From NCBI RefSeq assembly GCF_006345805.1, contig NW_021826144.1, positions 1 to 13,489 on the forward strand: a stretch of DNA of 13,489 nucleotides, in the 5' to 3' direction. This DNA is from Octopus sinensis. Lineage: Eukaryota. The notes below the pieces were generated by a model, which was not told the origin of the DNA, did not search any database, and worked only from the letters and a program-made list of their open reading frames with translations. Shown here piece after piece: positions 4,546 to 13,489 of the stretch. The first letter of the stretch is position 1; each line of letters begins with the position of its first letter. The position numbers were made by a program, and so were the translations under genes.

Positions 4546-6337
4546 AATTTTATTACTACCCACAAGGGGCGAACATAGATGGGACAGTACAGTCGGGGAA
4601 CTTAAAATAAGAAAGCGAATGACAAGAAAAGGAAAAAATAAAAGTAAAAAATGACATATGAAAGAATATTTACAATGAGATGTAAATGCCCACTCGATCC
4701 CCGGAATCGAGAGGTTACATTTTCGTCACATATATTTCACAAAATTTTCTTTTTTTTTTTTTTTCTTCTTTCTTCTCTCTCTTCTCACAATTCTATACGT
4801 ATTCCATAATAGCTTTCAATTCTCTAAAGTCAATCACTGAGCCCTCAGGCAGCCGCTCTCTCACTCGAACACTCGTGTAAAATATTACACTCTCTCCGGC
4901 AGCTCTGAGGAACTCAGCGACTCTTTCTTCGGGGATTAGAGCAGTCTCCTGCCACTGATCGGTCATCCTGTTGACCCATATATGTCCCTCCGTATTACAT
5001 GTCAAGTCTTTCATTTCGGGCAGAAATGGAAGGTTATTAACTTGTAGTAGCAGTAATCTTGTTTCCGTCCTACGTTTTCCCTCGTTTTCTTTTCGGGCTT
5101 ATTTTCTTCTCTTCCTTGTTCTCCTCTCTTTGTTTCTCTCTTTCTCTCTTTTTTTGCCTTCTTTTCTTTCTTCTTCCTTCTCTTGTTTTTTGGTTCTTTG
5201 TCTGTTCTCTCTTTTCTTCTCGTTTTATGTTCCTTTTCTTTTTCTTTTTTGTGTGCCGTCTTTTCTTTTCGTTTGATTCTGATCTTTCTCTTGTTTTTTT
5301 CCTGTTGGTTCTTTTTTCCTTTTTTTTTTTTTTTTCCTGACTCTTTTTGGTTCTATTTCTTTCTTTTCTTTTATTTCTTTTTCCTTCATTGACTTATTAT
5401 TTCCTTTCTCTTGTTGTTTTGTTTCCTTTTCTATGTTTTTCTTTTTATTTACCGTATTCTTCTTTTCTTCAAGTTCCTGCTCGCACTCCGCTACGAATTC
5501 GTATAACGGGCACTCTTTTTTAATGTGCCCCCTTGTCCCGCACAAGTAGCAGTTTGGCTTTCTTCCCTCTACAATTACACTGAGGTTTTTCTCATCTTCA
5601 ATTTCTATTCTGTAGGGGAACCTTTCAATGTCCTCTTTTGTGGCCATCAAACACAGTTCTACCCCATATCCTCTCCAGTTTACCGCGTTGGACTCCTTAA
5701 AGGATTCCACCTCCACTTCCTCTTCTGCTGCTCCTAGAATAGCTGTTGCCAGCCATTCTGTTTTCACTTCTGGGGGTATATTCGGGATTTTAACCCGGAC
5801 CCCTCTTCTTCCTTTTATGAGGGCCACATTATAAATGTTTCCGCTCTTAGTACAGTGGTAGCCAGTGAGGCTGCAATTTCTTCCGTTGCACATCTCACCT
5901 CCACCGTACCAAATTTCTTTCCTCTACTCACGTAGGTCGATTTCCCCATTATGTCTCCCAGACATTTTTCGATTTCGGCTATCTCCACTCTTGCCAGTTT
6001 CTTCGTATTTTTGTCTTGGGTTCTATATGTCACTGTCTTGTTTTCTTTGTCCTCTTTTGCTTTCGCGGGGGGATTAGCTTCACGCTATCACCCTCCCTTT
6101 GAATAGCTTTTCATATTCTTTGAGTTTACTTTTCTCAAAGAAAACATCCTTCACGATTATCGACGAATCATTATTTTTCTTTCCCGTGACCCCCGCGTAA
6201 GTCGCCATGACTAGAGGGTCAATTCACCTTCTTCGGAAGGTTTCCACACGTGGAGGCAAACGCCTCGCTGCGATATTAATCACTTTACACAACAAAATTT
6301 CAACGTCTAATCACAGATAACAACACACTTGGGTAAA
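4546..6337 (-). mobile_element. ORF1-only non-LTR retroelement of L1/Tx1 type (non-autonomous, HAL1-like)
   Basis: Degraded ORF1 with a CCHC knuckle, followed within ~250 bp by the same 3' terminal motif as the LINE at 6429. Candidate TSD TTTCCTC(C/G)ATGT at 4534-4545 and 6338-6349 (11/12 match). Confidence 0.72.
4793..6208 (-). pseudogene. LINE ORF1 (gag-like nucleic-acid-binding protein), frameshifted
   Basis: Start MATYAGVTGKK at 6208. Consecutive minus-strand ORF pieces 5815-6033, 5225-5893 (CYLCGTRGHIKKEC = CX2CX4HX4C, then a K/E-rich tract) and 4793-5014. Several frameshifts and stops. Confidence 0.8.
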
Positions 6338-6428: not shown

Positions 6429-7800
6429 TGTTTTATTATTACCCACAAGGGGCAGACAAAGAGGGGACAATACAACCTGATGTGGGGTCAGATTCTCGGA
6501 TGGGGTTACAAAAAGGATGAGATTAAAAATTCAAAATTTCACAAAAATGCAAAAATTATAAAATCGAATGAAAAAACAGACCGGAAGACATTACAGGTGG
6601 AGTGGGGGCGGGTTCAGCTCGGACCCCGACCCCACGAGCCCCGCCTCACCACTGATACTTTTGGTTTCGTTCTGATTTACATTTATGTGTGTCATTCTTC
6701 CAACTTCCGTGCTACTCCTTCCATCGTTCTTCATACACTCTTTTAGTCAGGCATTTTCTCTCCAGCCCTATCTTCCTTTTCAGGTGGTAGATGAAGTAAT
6801 TCATCAACCCAGGGCCGGATATGAACTTGCCTGACCGTATACCTTTCATTCTCGTCTTCCATATCACCTCTTTCGCAATTGCTACCACAACGAGAAAACA
6901 AATTCTTACCTTCTTTCGCGAGGAAATCTGGTGGGTCAATTTTTTTAATACACTCAGTCGACAGCTGTACTCTTCGTGTGCTTGACAACAGCTGTTCGGC
7001 ATAAACCCACCCTCAGACACGACCGACAATGAACAATAGCGTGCGGGACGGTTTCCCTATCCCGCCCGCATCTTGGACACATCGGACTGTCTTGGCCACC
7101 GTGCCTTGCGAGTTTATCCCGAACAGGTAGAGCTCCTCTGTAGCATTGCCATGCCAGAGACTTCTGGAAGTTGTCCAGTGTCTTCGGCTCGAACGTACGT
7201 CGGAACAGACTGGCCAGCTGATTATCGTCGAGACCCAGGGTTTCCCCCAAGGTGTCCTTCACATTTCGCCTCTACCAACCCTCTATAGAAGAATGTGGTG
7301 GAACCCCCCACCGCAGCGTTGCCCGAGCGACGGAATAGCAGGAGAGCCTTGCGACACTCCGTATACCATGTGCCCAGTTTCGATTTACGATTCAACCAGG
7401 TTTCCCATCCACCGAAACAAGTGAACTTGGGACATCCGTTCTACTAGCGAAGACCACACCCGTTCACCATCCAGGTAGAGCCACAGATGTCTTAACCTCA
7501 GCGCATGTTTGCGCATCATCAGCCGCATCATCCATAGCCCAGCCCACATCATAGCCCACCCTTTAACGGTTGTTGACAGCAAGTAGAGCGTTTCACAAGT
7601 GTTTTCCCGCCCTTCCACAAGAAGTAGAAGAGCTGTCTTTCCAACTTGGTCAACCACGAATCAGGGCATGGAACGACGGAAAGGCGGTAGGTGATAACCG
7701 ATGCGATAAACACATTGGCCACCTCCGCCCTCCCTTTCAGGGATAGCCACCGCCAAGACCAGGTCTTGGCTACTGCAGCCACCCTGCTCGTTACCTCGCC
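6429..7800 (-). mobile_element. 5'-truncated L1/Tx1-clade LINE
   Basis: Perfect 20-bp TSD AATTTTTTATTATCCATCTG at 6409-6428 and 7801-7820. Contains the ORF2 C-terminus and a 3' UTR ending GCCCCTTGTGGGTAATAATAAAA. Confidence 0.92.
6712..7800 (-). pseudogene. LINE ORF2 C-terminal region (post-RT thumb region and zf-RVT-like Cys motif), frameshifted
   Basis: WSWRWLSLKGRAEVAN...FLWKG...QPLKGGL, then LAWQCYRGALPV...CPRCGRDRETVPHAIVHC, then AKEVIWKTR. These motifs are typical of L1/Tx1 ORF2. Confidence 0.9.
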
Positions 7801-8099: not shown

Positions 8100-8245
8100 T
8101 TGCTATGGGCTCGCTCTAGGCAAGAAGTTGAACATTTTATTTTGCCTATGAAACTGCATGGACCCTAAGTAAGGCATGTGTAAAATTTGAATGAAATTAG
8201 TTGTGTAGTTCTCAAGTTTTAGGGAAATACACAGACAGACAGACA

Positions 8246-8286
<41 letters not shown>

Positions 8287-8353
8287 ACAGACAGGCAGAC
8301 AGACAGACAGACAGACAGACGGACACACTTTCTCAGTTTTATATTTATAAAGA
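8100..8353 (-). mobile_element. 5' end of a non-autonomous Helitron with internal (CTGT/CTGC)n tract; left boundary uncertain
   Basis: Minus strand reads A|TCTTTATAAATATAAAACTGAGAAAGTGTGTCCGTCTGTCTG...AACTACACAACTAATTTCATTCAAATTTTACAC. TC start after A, with the same layout as the start at 12284. Confidence 0.65.
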
Positions 8354-8472: not shown

Positions 8473-9003
8473 GATTACATCGACCCCAGTGCGTAACTGG
8501 TACTTAATTTATCGACCCCGAAAGGATGGAAGGCAAAGTCGACCTCGGCGGAATTTGAACTCAGAACGTAGCGGCAGACGAAGTACCTATTTCTTTACTA
8601 CCCACAAAGGGCTAAACACAGAGGGGACAAACAAGGACAGACAAATAGATTAAGTCGATTACATCGACCCCAGTGCGTAACTGGTACTTAATTTATCGAC
8701 CCCGAAAGGATGAAAGGCAAAGTCGACCTCGGCGGAATTTGAACTCAGAACGTAGCGGCAGACGAAGTACCTATTTCTTTACTACCCACAAGGGGCTAAA
8801 CACAGAAGGGGAAAACAAGGACAGACAAATAGATTAACTCGATTACATCGACCCCAGTGCGTAACTGGTACTTAATTTATCGACCCCGAAAAGATGAAAG
8901 GCGAAGTTGACCTCGGCGGAATTTGAAATCAGAACGTAAAGACAGACGAAATACCGCTTAGCATTTCGCCCGGCGTGCTAACCTTTCTGCCAGCTCGCCA
9001 CCT
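8473..9003 (-). mobile_element. tRNA-derived SINE (family B) as a head-to-tail array with 184-bp period
   Basis: GATTACATCGACCCC at 8473, 8657 and 8841. Single head GGCGAGCTGGCAGAAAGGTTAGCAC (A-box-like) at the right end. B-box-like GAGTTCAAATTCC in each unit (one substitution in the head unit). Central GCCTTTCATCCTTTCGGGGTCGATAAATTAAGTACCAG resembles a conserved metazoan SINE central domain; exact superfamily not verified. Confidence 0.85.
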
Positions 9004-10588: not shown

Positions 10589-10715
10589 TTGATTATATCT
10601 GGATTCTACATTGGTTTATATAATTTAATATGTTTTCCGTATTGTATACATATATATTAATAATTACATATTATGAAAACATACACGTTCTCAAATATGA
10701 ACAATATTGAGTATA

Positions 10716-11265
<550 letters not shown>

Positions 11266-12127: not shown

Positions 12128-12283
12128 TCGATTTAGTGCGTTTGTTTAGGCTATTTAGGAAGAGGAAATATATACAATAGCTGTATAAATTTGACTTTAC
12201 GTAACATATCTCCATGTATACATGGTTAATATAGGCATGTAAGTGTATGCGTGTGTGTGTGTGTGTGCGTTGATAGATAGATA

Positions 12284-12669
12284 TCTATATATATAAAGCT
12301 GAAGTTGTCTGGGTGGCTGGTTTGGCAGCCTTCAACTAATACTATCTCCTCCGAGACCCTGCGGCGCAAGTTGACCAAAATTGACAGTATGATGGAAGAA
12401 GGCTTGCTCTTCATTCCGTAGAAGATAAAATTCAAATTGGACCATGTTAACACCAAAAATTATTTACATCAAAAAGGTGCTTTTTTTATGAAAATCCCTA
12501 TTTTTTACGATTTTTTGACTGCTGTGTCGCCACTTTTCGGTGTATTTCAACCAGAAAAATGTTCACTTAAAGAGGATAACAAGCTACATAATGCAAAATC
12601 TTTACTTTTCAAAAATTCCAATTCTAAAGGTTCGAAACAAACCCGAGCAACACCGGGCGATACTGCTAG
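12284..12669 (+). mobile_element. complete 386-bp non-autonomous Helitron
   Basis: A|TCTATATATATAAAGCTGAAGTTGTCTG ... hairpin CCCGAGCAACACCGGG (12642-12657) ... CTAG|T, with no TSD. The reconstructed empty site matches the paralogous junction near 12995. Confidence 0.88.
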
Positions 12670-12922
12670 TGTTTCTTTATTAGCCAAACAGGGCTGAACA
12701 CAGAGAGGACAAATTACAAAGTAGAGCTTTTCTTTTGGGGGAGAAAAAAAAAGTGGGGTGTAGGTTTTCGATCAAAAAGGATCGTAAAAACAAAAAAAAG
12801 ACGATCAATAAGGGATCGTGTATCACAGAAATGTCATGATGTAAAGTGTTATGGGGGAAGCAGATAAGGTTTATCCGTGGAAAGAAAAGCCTACGGAAAA
12901 GACCACGGTATCCTCGGTCAAT
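12670..12922 (-). mobile_element. LINE 3' UTR fragment (second L1/Tx1-like family), copy 1
   Basis: Homologous to 12995-13280. Carries a variant of the shared 3' terminal motif (TGTCCTCTCTGTGTTCAGCCCTGTTTGGCTAATAAAGAAACA). Confidence 0.75.

Positions 12923-12994
<72 letters not shown>
12923..12994. repeat. (GATA)n microsatellite
   Basis: Seen directly. Confidence 0.97.
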
Positions 12995-13465
12995 TGTTTC
13001 ATTATTAGCCACACAGTGCTGAACACAGAGGGGACAAATTACAAAGTAGAGCTTTTCTTTATAGGGAGAAAAAAGAAAAGAAAAAGAAAAAGAAAGAGAA
13101 AAAGAAAAGCGGGGTAGGTTTTCGATCAAAAGGGATCATAAGAAGAGAGGGGAAAAAAGCGATCAATAGGGGTCGTTTATCACAGAAATGTCAAGATGTA
13201 AAGTGTAAAGGGGGATAGAGATAAGGTTTATCCGTGGAAAGAAAAGCCTACGGAAAAAAAAACCACGGTAACCTCAGTCAATAATGTCACATGTTAACAC
13301 ATTCATTTGCAAGTAAGTAACTCTCTGTTTTAAATTTTTCCGGGTTAGTAGGATTATGCTCAAGGTGGCTTCGTCATTCATACGTGCCATCCTTGCTATA
13401 TTCACCCATTTTTTTTGAAACATTCGCTAGACAAGACTTGCCTCTCTACTCTCACTCTCCTTTTA
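12995..13465 (-). mobile_element. LINE 3' fragment, copy 2, with ORF2 C-terminal remnant
   Basis: Same 3' UTR as copy 1. Minus-strand translation from ~13464 gives KRRVRVERQVLSSECFKK(frameshift)WVNIARM, similar to KRKIGLERKCLTKRVYEERW at the end of the ORF2 in 6429-7800. (GATA)n resumes at 13466. Confidence 0.75.
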
Positions 13466-13489
13466 GATAGATAGATAGATAGATAGATA

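What the first reader, a model, noticed from the sequence alone, without database searches (positions are those of the whole stretch)
12272..13489. Apparent (GATA)n-targeting LINE family
Seen: two same-orientation LINE 3' ends with different 5' truncation points (~250 and ~470 bp) are each bounded by (GATA)n on both sides. After removing the Helitron, both 3' junctions have the same phase: GATAGATAGATA|TGTTTC(T/A)TTATTAGCC. The copies differ by many substitutions and indels. Established: some Tx1-clade families are microsatellite-specific (Kibi at TC repeats, Koshi at TTC repeats). Inference: independent insertions of a family targeting GATA/TATC repeats, a target I do not recall being described. 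The related LINE at 6429 is not in such a tract.
Basis: partly seen in the sequence, partly recalled or inferred. Interest (0 to 1): 0.72.

Follow-up and report, generated by a model that had tools for sequence, protein, structure and literature searches.

The report
Octopus-type LINE that targets GATA repeats
Two broken copies of a jumping gene (an L1/Tx1-type LINE of an octopus-like genome) sit head to tail inside a GATA repeat, and counts over the whole genome show that this family lies mostly inside that repeat, likely because it cuts and primes there: a new target for an already known habit.

Summary
On the minus strand, copy A (12670-12924, 255 bp) and copy B (12995-13464, 470 bp) are 3' ends of one LINE family. 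Each is bounded by (GATA)n on both sides, and both have the 3' junction GATAGATAGATA|TGTTTC once a 386-bp Helitron-like insert (12284-12669) is removed. They are independent insertions: they are 78% alike but up to 86-88% like copies elsewhere, and their truncation points differ.

Genome-wide:
- 5901 copies carry the exact 3' 19-mer; 5398 continue with TAT and 3469 with in-phase (TATC)3, against a chance rate of about 4e-4.
- About 87% of sampled full-length 5' ends have (TATC)3 just upstream; 0 of 185 have the opposite orientation.
- In a positional sample of 30 copies, 21 of the 29 resolved have (TATC)>=3 at the 5' junction.
- At non-repeat sites, target-site duplications start directly after ...GAAACA, so the repeat is target sequence, not the element's own tail.

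The element is 6.1 kb. Its ORF2 (1149 aa) has APE, RT and zf-RVT domains, matches human L1 ORF2p best, and is open in many copies.

Verdict: a microsatellite-targeting L1/Tx1-type LINE with a target I did not find in print. Clade placement by tree was not done. Earlier notes of this scan reported the same on other DNA.

The parts
12272..12283 (.). (GATA)3, the remnant of the target tract on the 3' side of copy A. It is now separated from copy A by the Helitron-like insert.
   Evidence: Sequence read. The junction phase is restored when 12284-12669 is removed.
12284..12669 (+). 386-bp non-autonomous Helitron-like element. It inserted later, exactly between the tract (…GATA) and the 3' end of copy A (TGTTTC…).
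   Evidence: 3973 candidates, with scored copies matching 1-386 at 92-95%; 5' TC, 3' CTAG, subterminal CCCG…CGGG hairpin, T after the 3' end in 9 of 9 copies and A before the 5' end in 4 of 9.
12670..12924 (-). LINE copy A: 255 bp, 3' UTR only, 5'-truncated at reference position 5766.
   Evidence: It is 82-86% identical to older natural copies and 68% to the young reference. It is 77.5-78% identical to copy B.
12923..12994 (.). (GATA)18, perfect. It is at once the 5' flank of copy A and the 3' flank of copy B.
   Evidence: TRF, (18.0 copies, 100% matches).
12995..13464 (-). LINE copy B: 470 bp, covering the last ~40 codons of ORF2 (frameshifted) and the 3' UTR. It is 5'-truncated at reference position 5570.
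   Evidence: It is 87-88.6% identical to older natural copies. tblastn matches ORF2 aa 1108-1149 in two frames. The best other genomic copy is 87% identical.
13464..13489 (.). (TAGA)6.5, the 5' flank tract of copy B. The contig, which equals the window, ends inside it.
   Evidence: TRF. One search places the window as C2615:1-13489.

Best explanation
The two pieces are independent, 5'-truncated insertions of an L1/Tx1-type LINE family whose copies in this genome lie mostly inside (TATC)n/(GATA)n microsatellites, always in one orientation and one 3' phase, likely because its endonuclease nicks the GATA strand and its RNA is primed there.

Shown here:
- The family has a 6079-bp full-length form. 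It carries an ORF1 with one CCHC knuckle and an ORF2 of 1149 aa with APE, RT and zf-RVT domains. ORF2 is open in many copies.
- Its last bases are …GGCTAATAAAGAAACA, with no poly(A).
- 91.5% of 3' ends are followed by TAT and 58.8% by at least 3 in-phase TATC units.
- 72-87% of sampled 5' junctions abut (TATC)n in the same orientation, and none abut the opposite orientation.
- At non-repeat sites, 7-16-bp target-site duplications start with TA(T/A) immediately after …ACA.

Inferred:
- The APE domain nicks the strand complementary to LINE sense as 5'-GATA^GATA-3'.
- The freed …GATA-3'OH pairs with UAU(C) at or near the RNA 3' end and primes reverse transcription.
- The RNA probably carries a few UAUC units read through from the donor site. 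AAUAAA sits 6 nt before the element's end, so cleavage would fall in the flanking repeat.
- The cDNA is often 5'-truncated and is joined within the same tract, leaving repeat on both sides.
- Because the tract persists and dictates orientation, later copies stack head to tail, as copies A and B do here.
- The Helitron-like element arrived later at the A|T of the junction.
For: Window:
- Anatomy and identical junction phase.
- Different truncation points, 5766 and 5570.
- A against B is 78% identical. B against other copies reaches 87-88.6% and A against other copies reaches 85.7%.

Genome-wide exact pattern counts:
- 3' 19-mer: 5901.
- 19-mer plus TAT: 5398.
- 19-mer plus (TATC)3: 3469.
- Only 467 lack C at both +4 and +8.
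- Background (TATC)3 starts: 1.05 million per strand in 2.72 Gb.
- Full-length 5' 21-mer: 185.
- (TATC)3 within 25 nt upstream at 84 of 97 reverse-strand sites and at 52 of the first 60 listed sites.
- (GATA)3 in the opposite orientation: 0 of 185.

Samples:
- Positional sample, the first 30 matches on contig C1. The 5' flank has perfect (TATC)>=3 within 30 nt in 21, two units in 2, none or degenerate in 6, and 1 is unresolved because of an N gap.
- BLAST-chosen sample of the older subfamily: 14 of 29 resolved.
- All four young copies fetched first have the repeat on both sides.

Target-site duplications that start at offset 0 after ACA:
- TATATACAC, TATAGAATGC, TATATATATTTGTTGT, TATATTAACAGTTT, TATTTTTGTAG.
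- TAAATCTTT, TATCTAC.

Other:
- Head-to-tail stacks elsewhere: C26:24905161-24906354 with 4 copies; L003, L010, L012, L023; L127.
- Protein: Pfam RVT_1 1.1e-30, Exo_endo_phos 2.6e-15, zf-RVT 2e-7. The best solved relative is human L1 ORF2p, E 6.5e-53, collinear over residues 6-877.
- 17 of 134 scored APE-region matches lie in open frames of at least 1140 aa.
Against: - The preference is not absolute.
  - In the older subfamily, to which the window copies belong, 15 of 29 resolved copies have no TATC tract at the 5' junction.
  - In the positional sample, 6 of 29 have none or only a degenerate one.
- Three copies (L062, L006, L069) have a long 3' tract but little or none on the 5' side. This could mean tail synthesis, or growth of the repeat after insertion.
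- The pattern counts see only copies with a perfect 19-mer or 21-mer, so they lean towards young copies.
- Nothing here separates endonuclease specificity from RNA-primer pairing.
- The read-through RNA end is unobserved. The one attempt to see it gave nothing.
- No empty orthologous site was examined.
Confidence: 0.8

Rival explanations
1. The (TATC)n is only the element's own microsatellite 3' tail, as in many RTE, CR1 and L2 LINEs. On this view, repeat on the 5' side appears only when a copy happens to lie behind another copy's tail.
For: - 3' tracts are more regular than 5' ones.
- A few copies have a long 3' tract and no 5' tract (L062, L006).
- Microsatellite-tailed LINEs, including an octopus RTE, are on record (PMC9115989, passages read).
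Against: - Target-site duplications at non-repeat sites begin directly after …ACA, so TAT(C) is present in the target.
- About 87% of sampled full-length 5' ends are preceded by (TATC)3, and 0 of 185 by the opposite orientation.
- In the positional sample, most 5' tracts are not preceded by another copy within the 1.5 kb held.
- Many copies have only 1-2 units or none at the 3' side, which does not fit an obligatory tail.
Confidence: 0.05
2. The family targets only a short motif (a nick site next to TAT or TATC). On this view, the long tracts on both sides grew later by slippage from TATC-containing target-site duplications, or the copies accumulate passively in repeat-rich DNA.
For: - 91.5% of 3' ends have TAT, yet only 58.8% have at least 3 units.
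- Target-site duplications at unique sites share only TA(T/A).
- The microsatellite between copies A and B is perfect although the copies are old, which shows ongoing repeat turnover.
Against: - Very young copies, 97-99% identical to the reference, already sit between long tracts on both sides (L121, L125, L126, L130).
- (TA)n is common in this genome, as the window itself shows. Yet TATATATA-type 3' flanks are a minority within the 467 of 5901 non-TATC class.
- Strict orientation, 0 of 185 opposite, argues against passive accumulation.
Confidence: 0.12
3. The two window copies arose by local tandem duplication of one LINE fragment together with its repeat.
For: Same orientation, adjacency and the same 3' junction phase.
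Against: - Different 5' truncation points, reference positions 5766 and 5570.
- They are 77.5-78% identical to each other, but 85.7% (A) and 88.6% (B) identical to copies on other contigs.
- Same orientation and phase are the family rule genome-wide.
Confidence: 0.03

Closest known systems
Kibi (TC)n and Koshi (TTC)n, Tx1-clade LINEs of teleosts (Kojima and Fujiwara 2004, as cited in passages of PMC3812793 and PMC4494074)
   Same: They are APE-type LINEs of the L1/Tx1 group and lack a poly(A) tail. They are found inside one microsatellite type in one orientation, with the repeat on both sides.
   Different: The target unit here is TATC/GATA, a mixed purine-pyrimidine tetranucleotide rather than a homopyrimidine run. 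The host is a mollusc. Relatedness of the reverse transcriptase to Kibi and Koshi was not tested because no reference sequences were at hand.
Crocodilian Tx1 families on (TTCC)n or (TTTC)n (Tx1-1_Crp, Tx1-2_AMi and others; PMC4494074, section 15 passage)
   Same: They prefer a tetranucleotide microsatellite. That paper calls a family target-specific if more than 20% of flanks carry the target, and this family exceeds that several-fold.
   Different: A different repeat unit and a different host phylum. The crocodilian families are old, whereas this family has many copies with open ORF2.
Waldo (ACAY)n and Mino (AC)n of the R1 clade, and Dong (TAA)n (PMC3812793 passage)
   Same: They show microsatellite-specific integration.
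   Different: These belong to other clades.
Microsatellite-tailed LINEs such as RTE, including octopus RTE-2_OV (PMC9115989 passages)
   Same: A LINE followed by a microsatellite at its 3' end.
   Different: In those elements the repeat is part of the element's 3' UTR or tail. Here, target-site duplications and 5' flanks show that the repeat is the target.
'L1-Tx1' families annotated as recently active in Octopus vulgaris (13 families, 421 insertions; PMC13282606, Table 1 passage)
   Same: Probably the same or sister families: young L1/Tx1-class LINEs in an octopus genome of about 2.7-2.8 Gb.
   Different: In a term search of that paper's main text, 'GATA' and 'insertion preference' do not occur and the one 'microsatellite' hit is a figure legend on repeat classes. 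Its supplements were not read.

Membership tests
L1 superfamily (L1/Tx1 group) of APE-type LINEs | ORF2 with an N-terminal APE endonuclease, a central reverse transcriptase and a C-terminal Cys-His motif, collinear with L1 ORF2p | tested here: met
   Pfam: Exo_endo_phos over residues 24-212, RVT_1 over 511-760, zf-RVT over 983-1035. Human L1 ORF2p matches at E 6.5e-53 over residues 6-877. R2 proteins match only in the RT domain, at about 1e-20.
Tx1 clade | The reverse-transcriptase domain groups with Tx1 references in a phylogeny (RTclass1-type test) | not testable with these tools
   No named Tx1 or L1 reference sequences could be obtained. The homologue search returned 22 proteins; the only source names were generic, on four distant hits at E 1.5e-32 or weaker. 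The cluster look-up returned no names.
Tx1 clade | ORF1 of the RRM/CCHC-knuckle type, which PMC5203782 (passage) says is consistent with Tx1 in non-mammalian animals | tested here: inconclusive
   One CX2CX4HX4C knuckle (CYLCGSETHLKKTC) was read in the 262-aa ORF1 frame. Pfam gave no significant hit for this ORF.
Tx1 clade | No poly(A) tail, and a 3' end that abuts the target sequence | tested here: met
   All 3' ends examined end in …GAAACA followed by target or repeat, never by an A run.
Microsatellite-specific LINEs (criterion of PMC4494074: target seen in more than 20% of flanks) | One repeat type at the flanks of more than 20% of copies | tested here: met
   - 3' side: 3469 of 5901.
- 5' side: 84 of 97 and 52 of 60 full-length ends; 21 of 29 in the positional sample; 14 of 29 in the older subfamily.
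Microsatellite-specific LINEs | The repeat is target, not tail: it is present on both sides, in a fixed orientation, with target-site duplications at other sites | tested here: met
   0 of 185 5' ends have the opposite orientation. Target-site duplications start right after the last element base.
Microsatellite-specific LINEs | Sequence-specific cleavage by the element's endonuclease | not testable with these tools
   This needs a nicking assay. Only the junction statistics (91.5% TAT) bear on it.

The most novel reading that the evidence does not exclude
The element carries no fixed address. Its AAUAAA lies 6 nt before its end, so each transcript finishes inside the flanking repeat. The few UAUC units copied from the donor site would then guide the next integration by pairing with nicked (GATA)n DNA. 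Target choice would be RNA-templated and heritable through the insertion site. That would explain sister copies on other tetranucleotide repeats, and it would make the target re-programmable by changing the 3' flank.
Probability: 0.25. Interest if true: 0.75.

Novelty: new member of a known kind. Interest (0 to 1): 0.5.

Why it matters
- Site-selective LINEs are few. Each new target helps to show how APE endonucleases and RNA 3' ends set integration sites.
- This family pairs a clean, countable preference with high copy number (thousands of copies) and with many copies whose ORF2 is open. That makes the mechanism directly testable: endonuclease specificity against RNA-primer pairing.
- About 0.35% of this 2.7-Gb genome is (TATC)n. 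A LINE that homes to it shapes where large insertions accumulate, and it breaks assemblies: this contig ends inside such a tract.
- It also bears on how far the many (GATA)n loci used as octopus markers are LINE-associated.
- It adds a mollusc example, and a repeat unit that is not homopyrimidine, to a habit known from fish, crocodilians and insects.

Tried and rejected
- **Clade naming.**
  - The homologue search gave 22 proteins, with only generic source names on four distant hits.
  - The cluster look-up gave no names.
  - The ESM Atlas gave only 'hypothetical protein' clusters with RVT_1, Exo_endo_phos and zf-RVT.
  - No RT tree with reference clades was made.
- **RNA 3' end.**
  - The look-up of sequencing runs listed no holder on record as RNA.
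  - Contigs of 4 runs were laid on L045:4700-5516, but positions 5293-5516 were skipped as repeat, so nothing was learned about transcript ends.
- **3'-terminal RNA structure.** RNAalifold on four 3' ends (plus one 10-nt piece included by mistake) gave only a 4-bp hairpin at -0.2 kcal/mol with no covariation. No claim is made.
- **ORF1 family.** Pfam gave nothing significant.
- **Fixed 5' junction phase.** The 5' flanks end variously in …TATCT, …CTATC or …TATCTA. No rule is claimed.
- **Format errors, corrected and re-sent.** broke search-term rules. One search was a script crash.
- **Earlier scan notes.** A look-up by sequence found nothing. A look-up by words found eight notes.

Full report
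**What is in the window**

The window is a whole contig (C2615:1-13489) of a 2.72-Gb genome in 13,516 contigs. Read on the minus strand, the region holds two 3' ends of one LINE family.

- Copy A is 12670-12924 (255 bp). It matches positions 5766-6079 of a 6079-bp full-length genomic copy.
- Copy B is 12995-13464 (470 bp). It matches positions 5570-6079 and includes the last ~40 codons of ORF2 in two frames.

The repeats and the insert around them are as follows.

- (GATA)18, 100% perfect, lies between the copies at 12923-12994.
- (TAGA)6.5 follows copy B up to the contig end (13464-13489).
- (GATA)3 lies at 12272-12283.
- A 386-bp insert (12284-12669) separates that (GATA)3 from the 3' end of copy A.

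The insert is a discrete repeat with Helitron hallmarks.

- It has 3973 first-look candidates, and scored copies match over 1-386 at 92-95%.
- It has a 5' TC, a 3' CTAG and a subterminal hairpin. A T follows it in 9 of 9 other copies, and no target duplication is visible.

With the insert removed, both 3' junctions read GATAGATAGATA|TGTTTC(T/A)TTATTAGCC. The only correction is that copy A ends at 12670.

**Independent insertions, not a local duplication**

- A and B are 77.5-78% identical.
- B is 87-88.6% identical, and A up to 85.7% identical, to copies on other contigs.
- Their 5' truncation points differ by about 200 bp.

**The family**

A search with copy B found 3171 candidates. Following one longer copy upstream gave APE and RT fragments. 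A search with the APE fragment gave 13,165 candidates. Of the 134 scored, 133 are 90-91% identical to the query (the other is the query's own locus), and 17 lie in open frames of at least 1140 aa.

Four young copies were fetched. The full-length form is 6079 bp.

- The 5' end reads (T)CACAATGGACGG….
- ORF1 carries one CX2CX4HX4C knuckle. Pfam finds nothing significant in it.
- ORF2 is 1149 aa, with Exo_endo_phos, RVT_1 and zf-RVT domains.
- A ~390-bp 3' UTR ends in …GGCTAATAAAGAAACA. There is no poly(A).

The best solved relative is human L1 ORF2p (E 6.5e-53, collinear over residues 6-877). R2 proteins match only in the RT domain. This places the element in the L1/Tx1 group.

Three traits are Tx1-like: an ORF1 with a CCHC knuckle, no poly(A) tail, and target preference. 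Passages in two papers fit this reading.

- Such ORF1 types in non-mammalian animals are said to be consistent with Tx1 (PMC5203782).
- Gastropod L1-superfamily elements are Tx1 (PMC11203168).

No RT tree was possible, because no named reference sequences could be obtained.

**Is the repeat a tail or a target?**

3' side, by exact pattern counts in the whole genome:

| 3' pattern | Count |
|---|---|
| 3' 19-mer | 5901 (reversed-pattern control 0) |
| 19-mer + TAT | 5398 (91.5%) |
| 19-mer + in-phase (TATC)3 | 3469 (58.8%) |
| No C at both +4 and +8 | 467 (7.9%) |

Many of those 467 are (TA)n or phase-shifted TATC.

The background is 1,050,591 forward and 1,055,011 reverse overlapping (TATC)3 starts. 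By my arithmetic that is about 0.35% of the genome. The chance that a random site is followed by (TATC)3 on a given strand is about 3.9e-4. The tool's own 'control' for this pattern is a rotation of the same repeat, so it is not a real control.

5' side:

- The full-length 5' 21-mer occurs 185 times.
- (TATC)3 lies within 25 nt upstream at 84 of the 97 reverse-strand sites.
- By comparing the two listings, it also lies there at 52 of the first 60 listed sites. The forward count of 290 is inflated by overlapping starts.
- The opposite orientation, (GATA)3, occurs at 0 of 185.

Positional sample. I took the first 30 matches on contig C1, which are not chosen by their flanks, and fetched more upstream DNA for the 11 long copies. 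The 5' junctions were mostly truncated, at many different positions.

| 5' flank | Copies (of 30) |
|---|---|
| Perfect (TATC)>=3 within 30 nt | 21 |
| Two units | 2 |
| None or degenerate | 6 |
| Unresolved (N gap) | 1 |

In the BLAST-chosen sample of the older subfamily, to which the window copies belong, 14 of 29 resolved copies have the tract at the 5' junction and 15 do not.

Target-site duplications. At sites outside the repeat, duplications of 7-16 bp begin immediately after …ACA:

- TATATACAC, TATAGAATGC, TATATATATTTGTTGT, TATATTAACAGTTT, TATTTTTGTAG.
- TAAATCTTT, TATCTAC.

So the TAT(C) after the element was present in the target, and the element has no obligatory tail of its own.

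Head-to-tail stacks like the one in the window recur elsewhere: C26:24905161-24906354 with four copies, and L003, L010, L012, L023 and L127.

**Mechanism**

Shown: one orientation, one 3' phase, a near-invariant TAT next to the 3' end, repeat on both sides, and target-site duplications.

Inferred:

- The endonuclease nicks the GATA strand as GATA^GATA.
- The resulting 3'-OH pairs with UAU(C) at the RNA's 3' end and primes reverse transcription.
- AAUAAA lies 6 nt before the element's end. Cleavage and polyadenylation would therefore fall in the flanking repeat, and the RNA would carry a few UAUC units from its donor site.
- The 5' end is joined within the tract.
- The surviving tract invites the next copy in the same orientation.

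I cannot separate endonuclease specificity from primer pairing. The attempt to see transcript ends failed, because the repeat-rich 3' part was skipped. RNAalifold found no convincing 3' structure.

**Against my reading**

- The preference is not absolute. About half of the old copies, and about a fifth of the positional sample, lack a clear 5' tract.
- A few copies have a long 3' tract only (L062, L006).
- The pattern counts favour young copies.
- No empty sites were examined.

A rival remains at about 0.12. In it, only a short TAT/TATC nick motif is recognised and the tracts grew later. Three results speak against it: very young copies (97-99% identical) sit between long tracts on both sides, (TA)n flanks are rare, and orientation is strict.

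**Comparison with what is known**

Reviews and papers read as passages list these microsatellite targets.

- ACAY (Waldo), AC (Mino), TC (Kibi), TTC (Koshi) and TAA (Dong), from PMC3812793.
- TTCC and TTTC for crocodilian Tx1 families, from PMC4494074. That paper treats a family as target-specific when more than 20% of its flanks carry the target.

On octopus LINEs:

- An octopus paper describes an RTE with a microsatellite in its 3' UTR, and a Dong element (PMC9115989).
- A 2026 O. vulgaris repeat annotation lists 13 recently active L1-Tx1 families. In a term search of its main text, 'GATA' and 'insertion preference' do not occur, and 'microsatellite' occurs once, in a figure legend on repeat classes (PMC13282606).
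- PMC8967140 names L1-Tx1 among the LINE families expanded in three coleoids.

Four full-text searches found no LINE reported to target (GATA)n/(TATC)n. Repbase, Repbase Reports and the supplements of these papers were not seen and could hold such a note.

Earlier notes of this scan describe the same habit on other windows and on another piece of this genome. They agree with what I tested here, but they are not independent evidence.

**Verdict**

It is a new member, with a new target unit and a new host phylum, of the known kind 'microsatellite-targeting L1/Tx1-type LINE'.

- Interest: 0.5. It is not surprising in kind. It is, however, a clean, abundant and probably still active system in which the basis of target choice can be tested.

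Noticed in passing
window 12284-12669: 386-bp non-autonomous Helitron-like element. It has thousands of genomic candidates. Head-to-tail tandem copies occur at C28:11383017-11383893 (locus L120).
   Followed up: partly
window 6429-7797 (minus strand): A sister LINE family, 43-60% identical at the amino-acid level to the C-terminal third of ORF2. Its 3' end has a similar sequence (…AATAATAAAACACA).
   Followed up: partly
window 8473-8955, especially 8590-8631: A 184-bp unit repeated 2.6 times that looks like a SINE. It carries a 42-nt stretch 88-90% identical to a stretch at the LINE's 3' end (to within about 2 nt of its last base). This LINE group may therefore mobilise a SINE through a shared tail.
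   Followed up: no
window 10713-11195 and 2592-2619: (ATAG)n tracts of about 120 and 7 units, in the same orientation as the LINE target, with no LINE copy beside them. These are unoccupied potential targets. A further tract, (ACAG/CAGG)n, lies at 8231-8325.
   Followed up: no
L011 and L003: Older copies of the same family are followed directly by other tetranucleotide repeats: (TGTC)n then (TGAC)n in L011, and (CCGT/CCAT)n in L003. This hints at looser or shifted targets.
   Followed up: no
G000:C26:24905161-24906354: Four 3' ends of the family lie in tandem at a spacing of about 300 bp, a larger stack than the one in the window.
   Followed up: no
full-length 5' junctions listed: Between the (TATC)n tract and CACAATGG there are often a few extra bases (TC, TCTC, CTCTATC). 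This points to 5'-end heterogeneity or untemplated additions.
   Followed up: no
window 13464-13489 (contig end): The contig ends inside the (TAGA)n tract. The assembly probably broke at this LINE and microsatellite stack.
   Followed up: no
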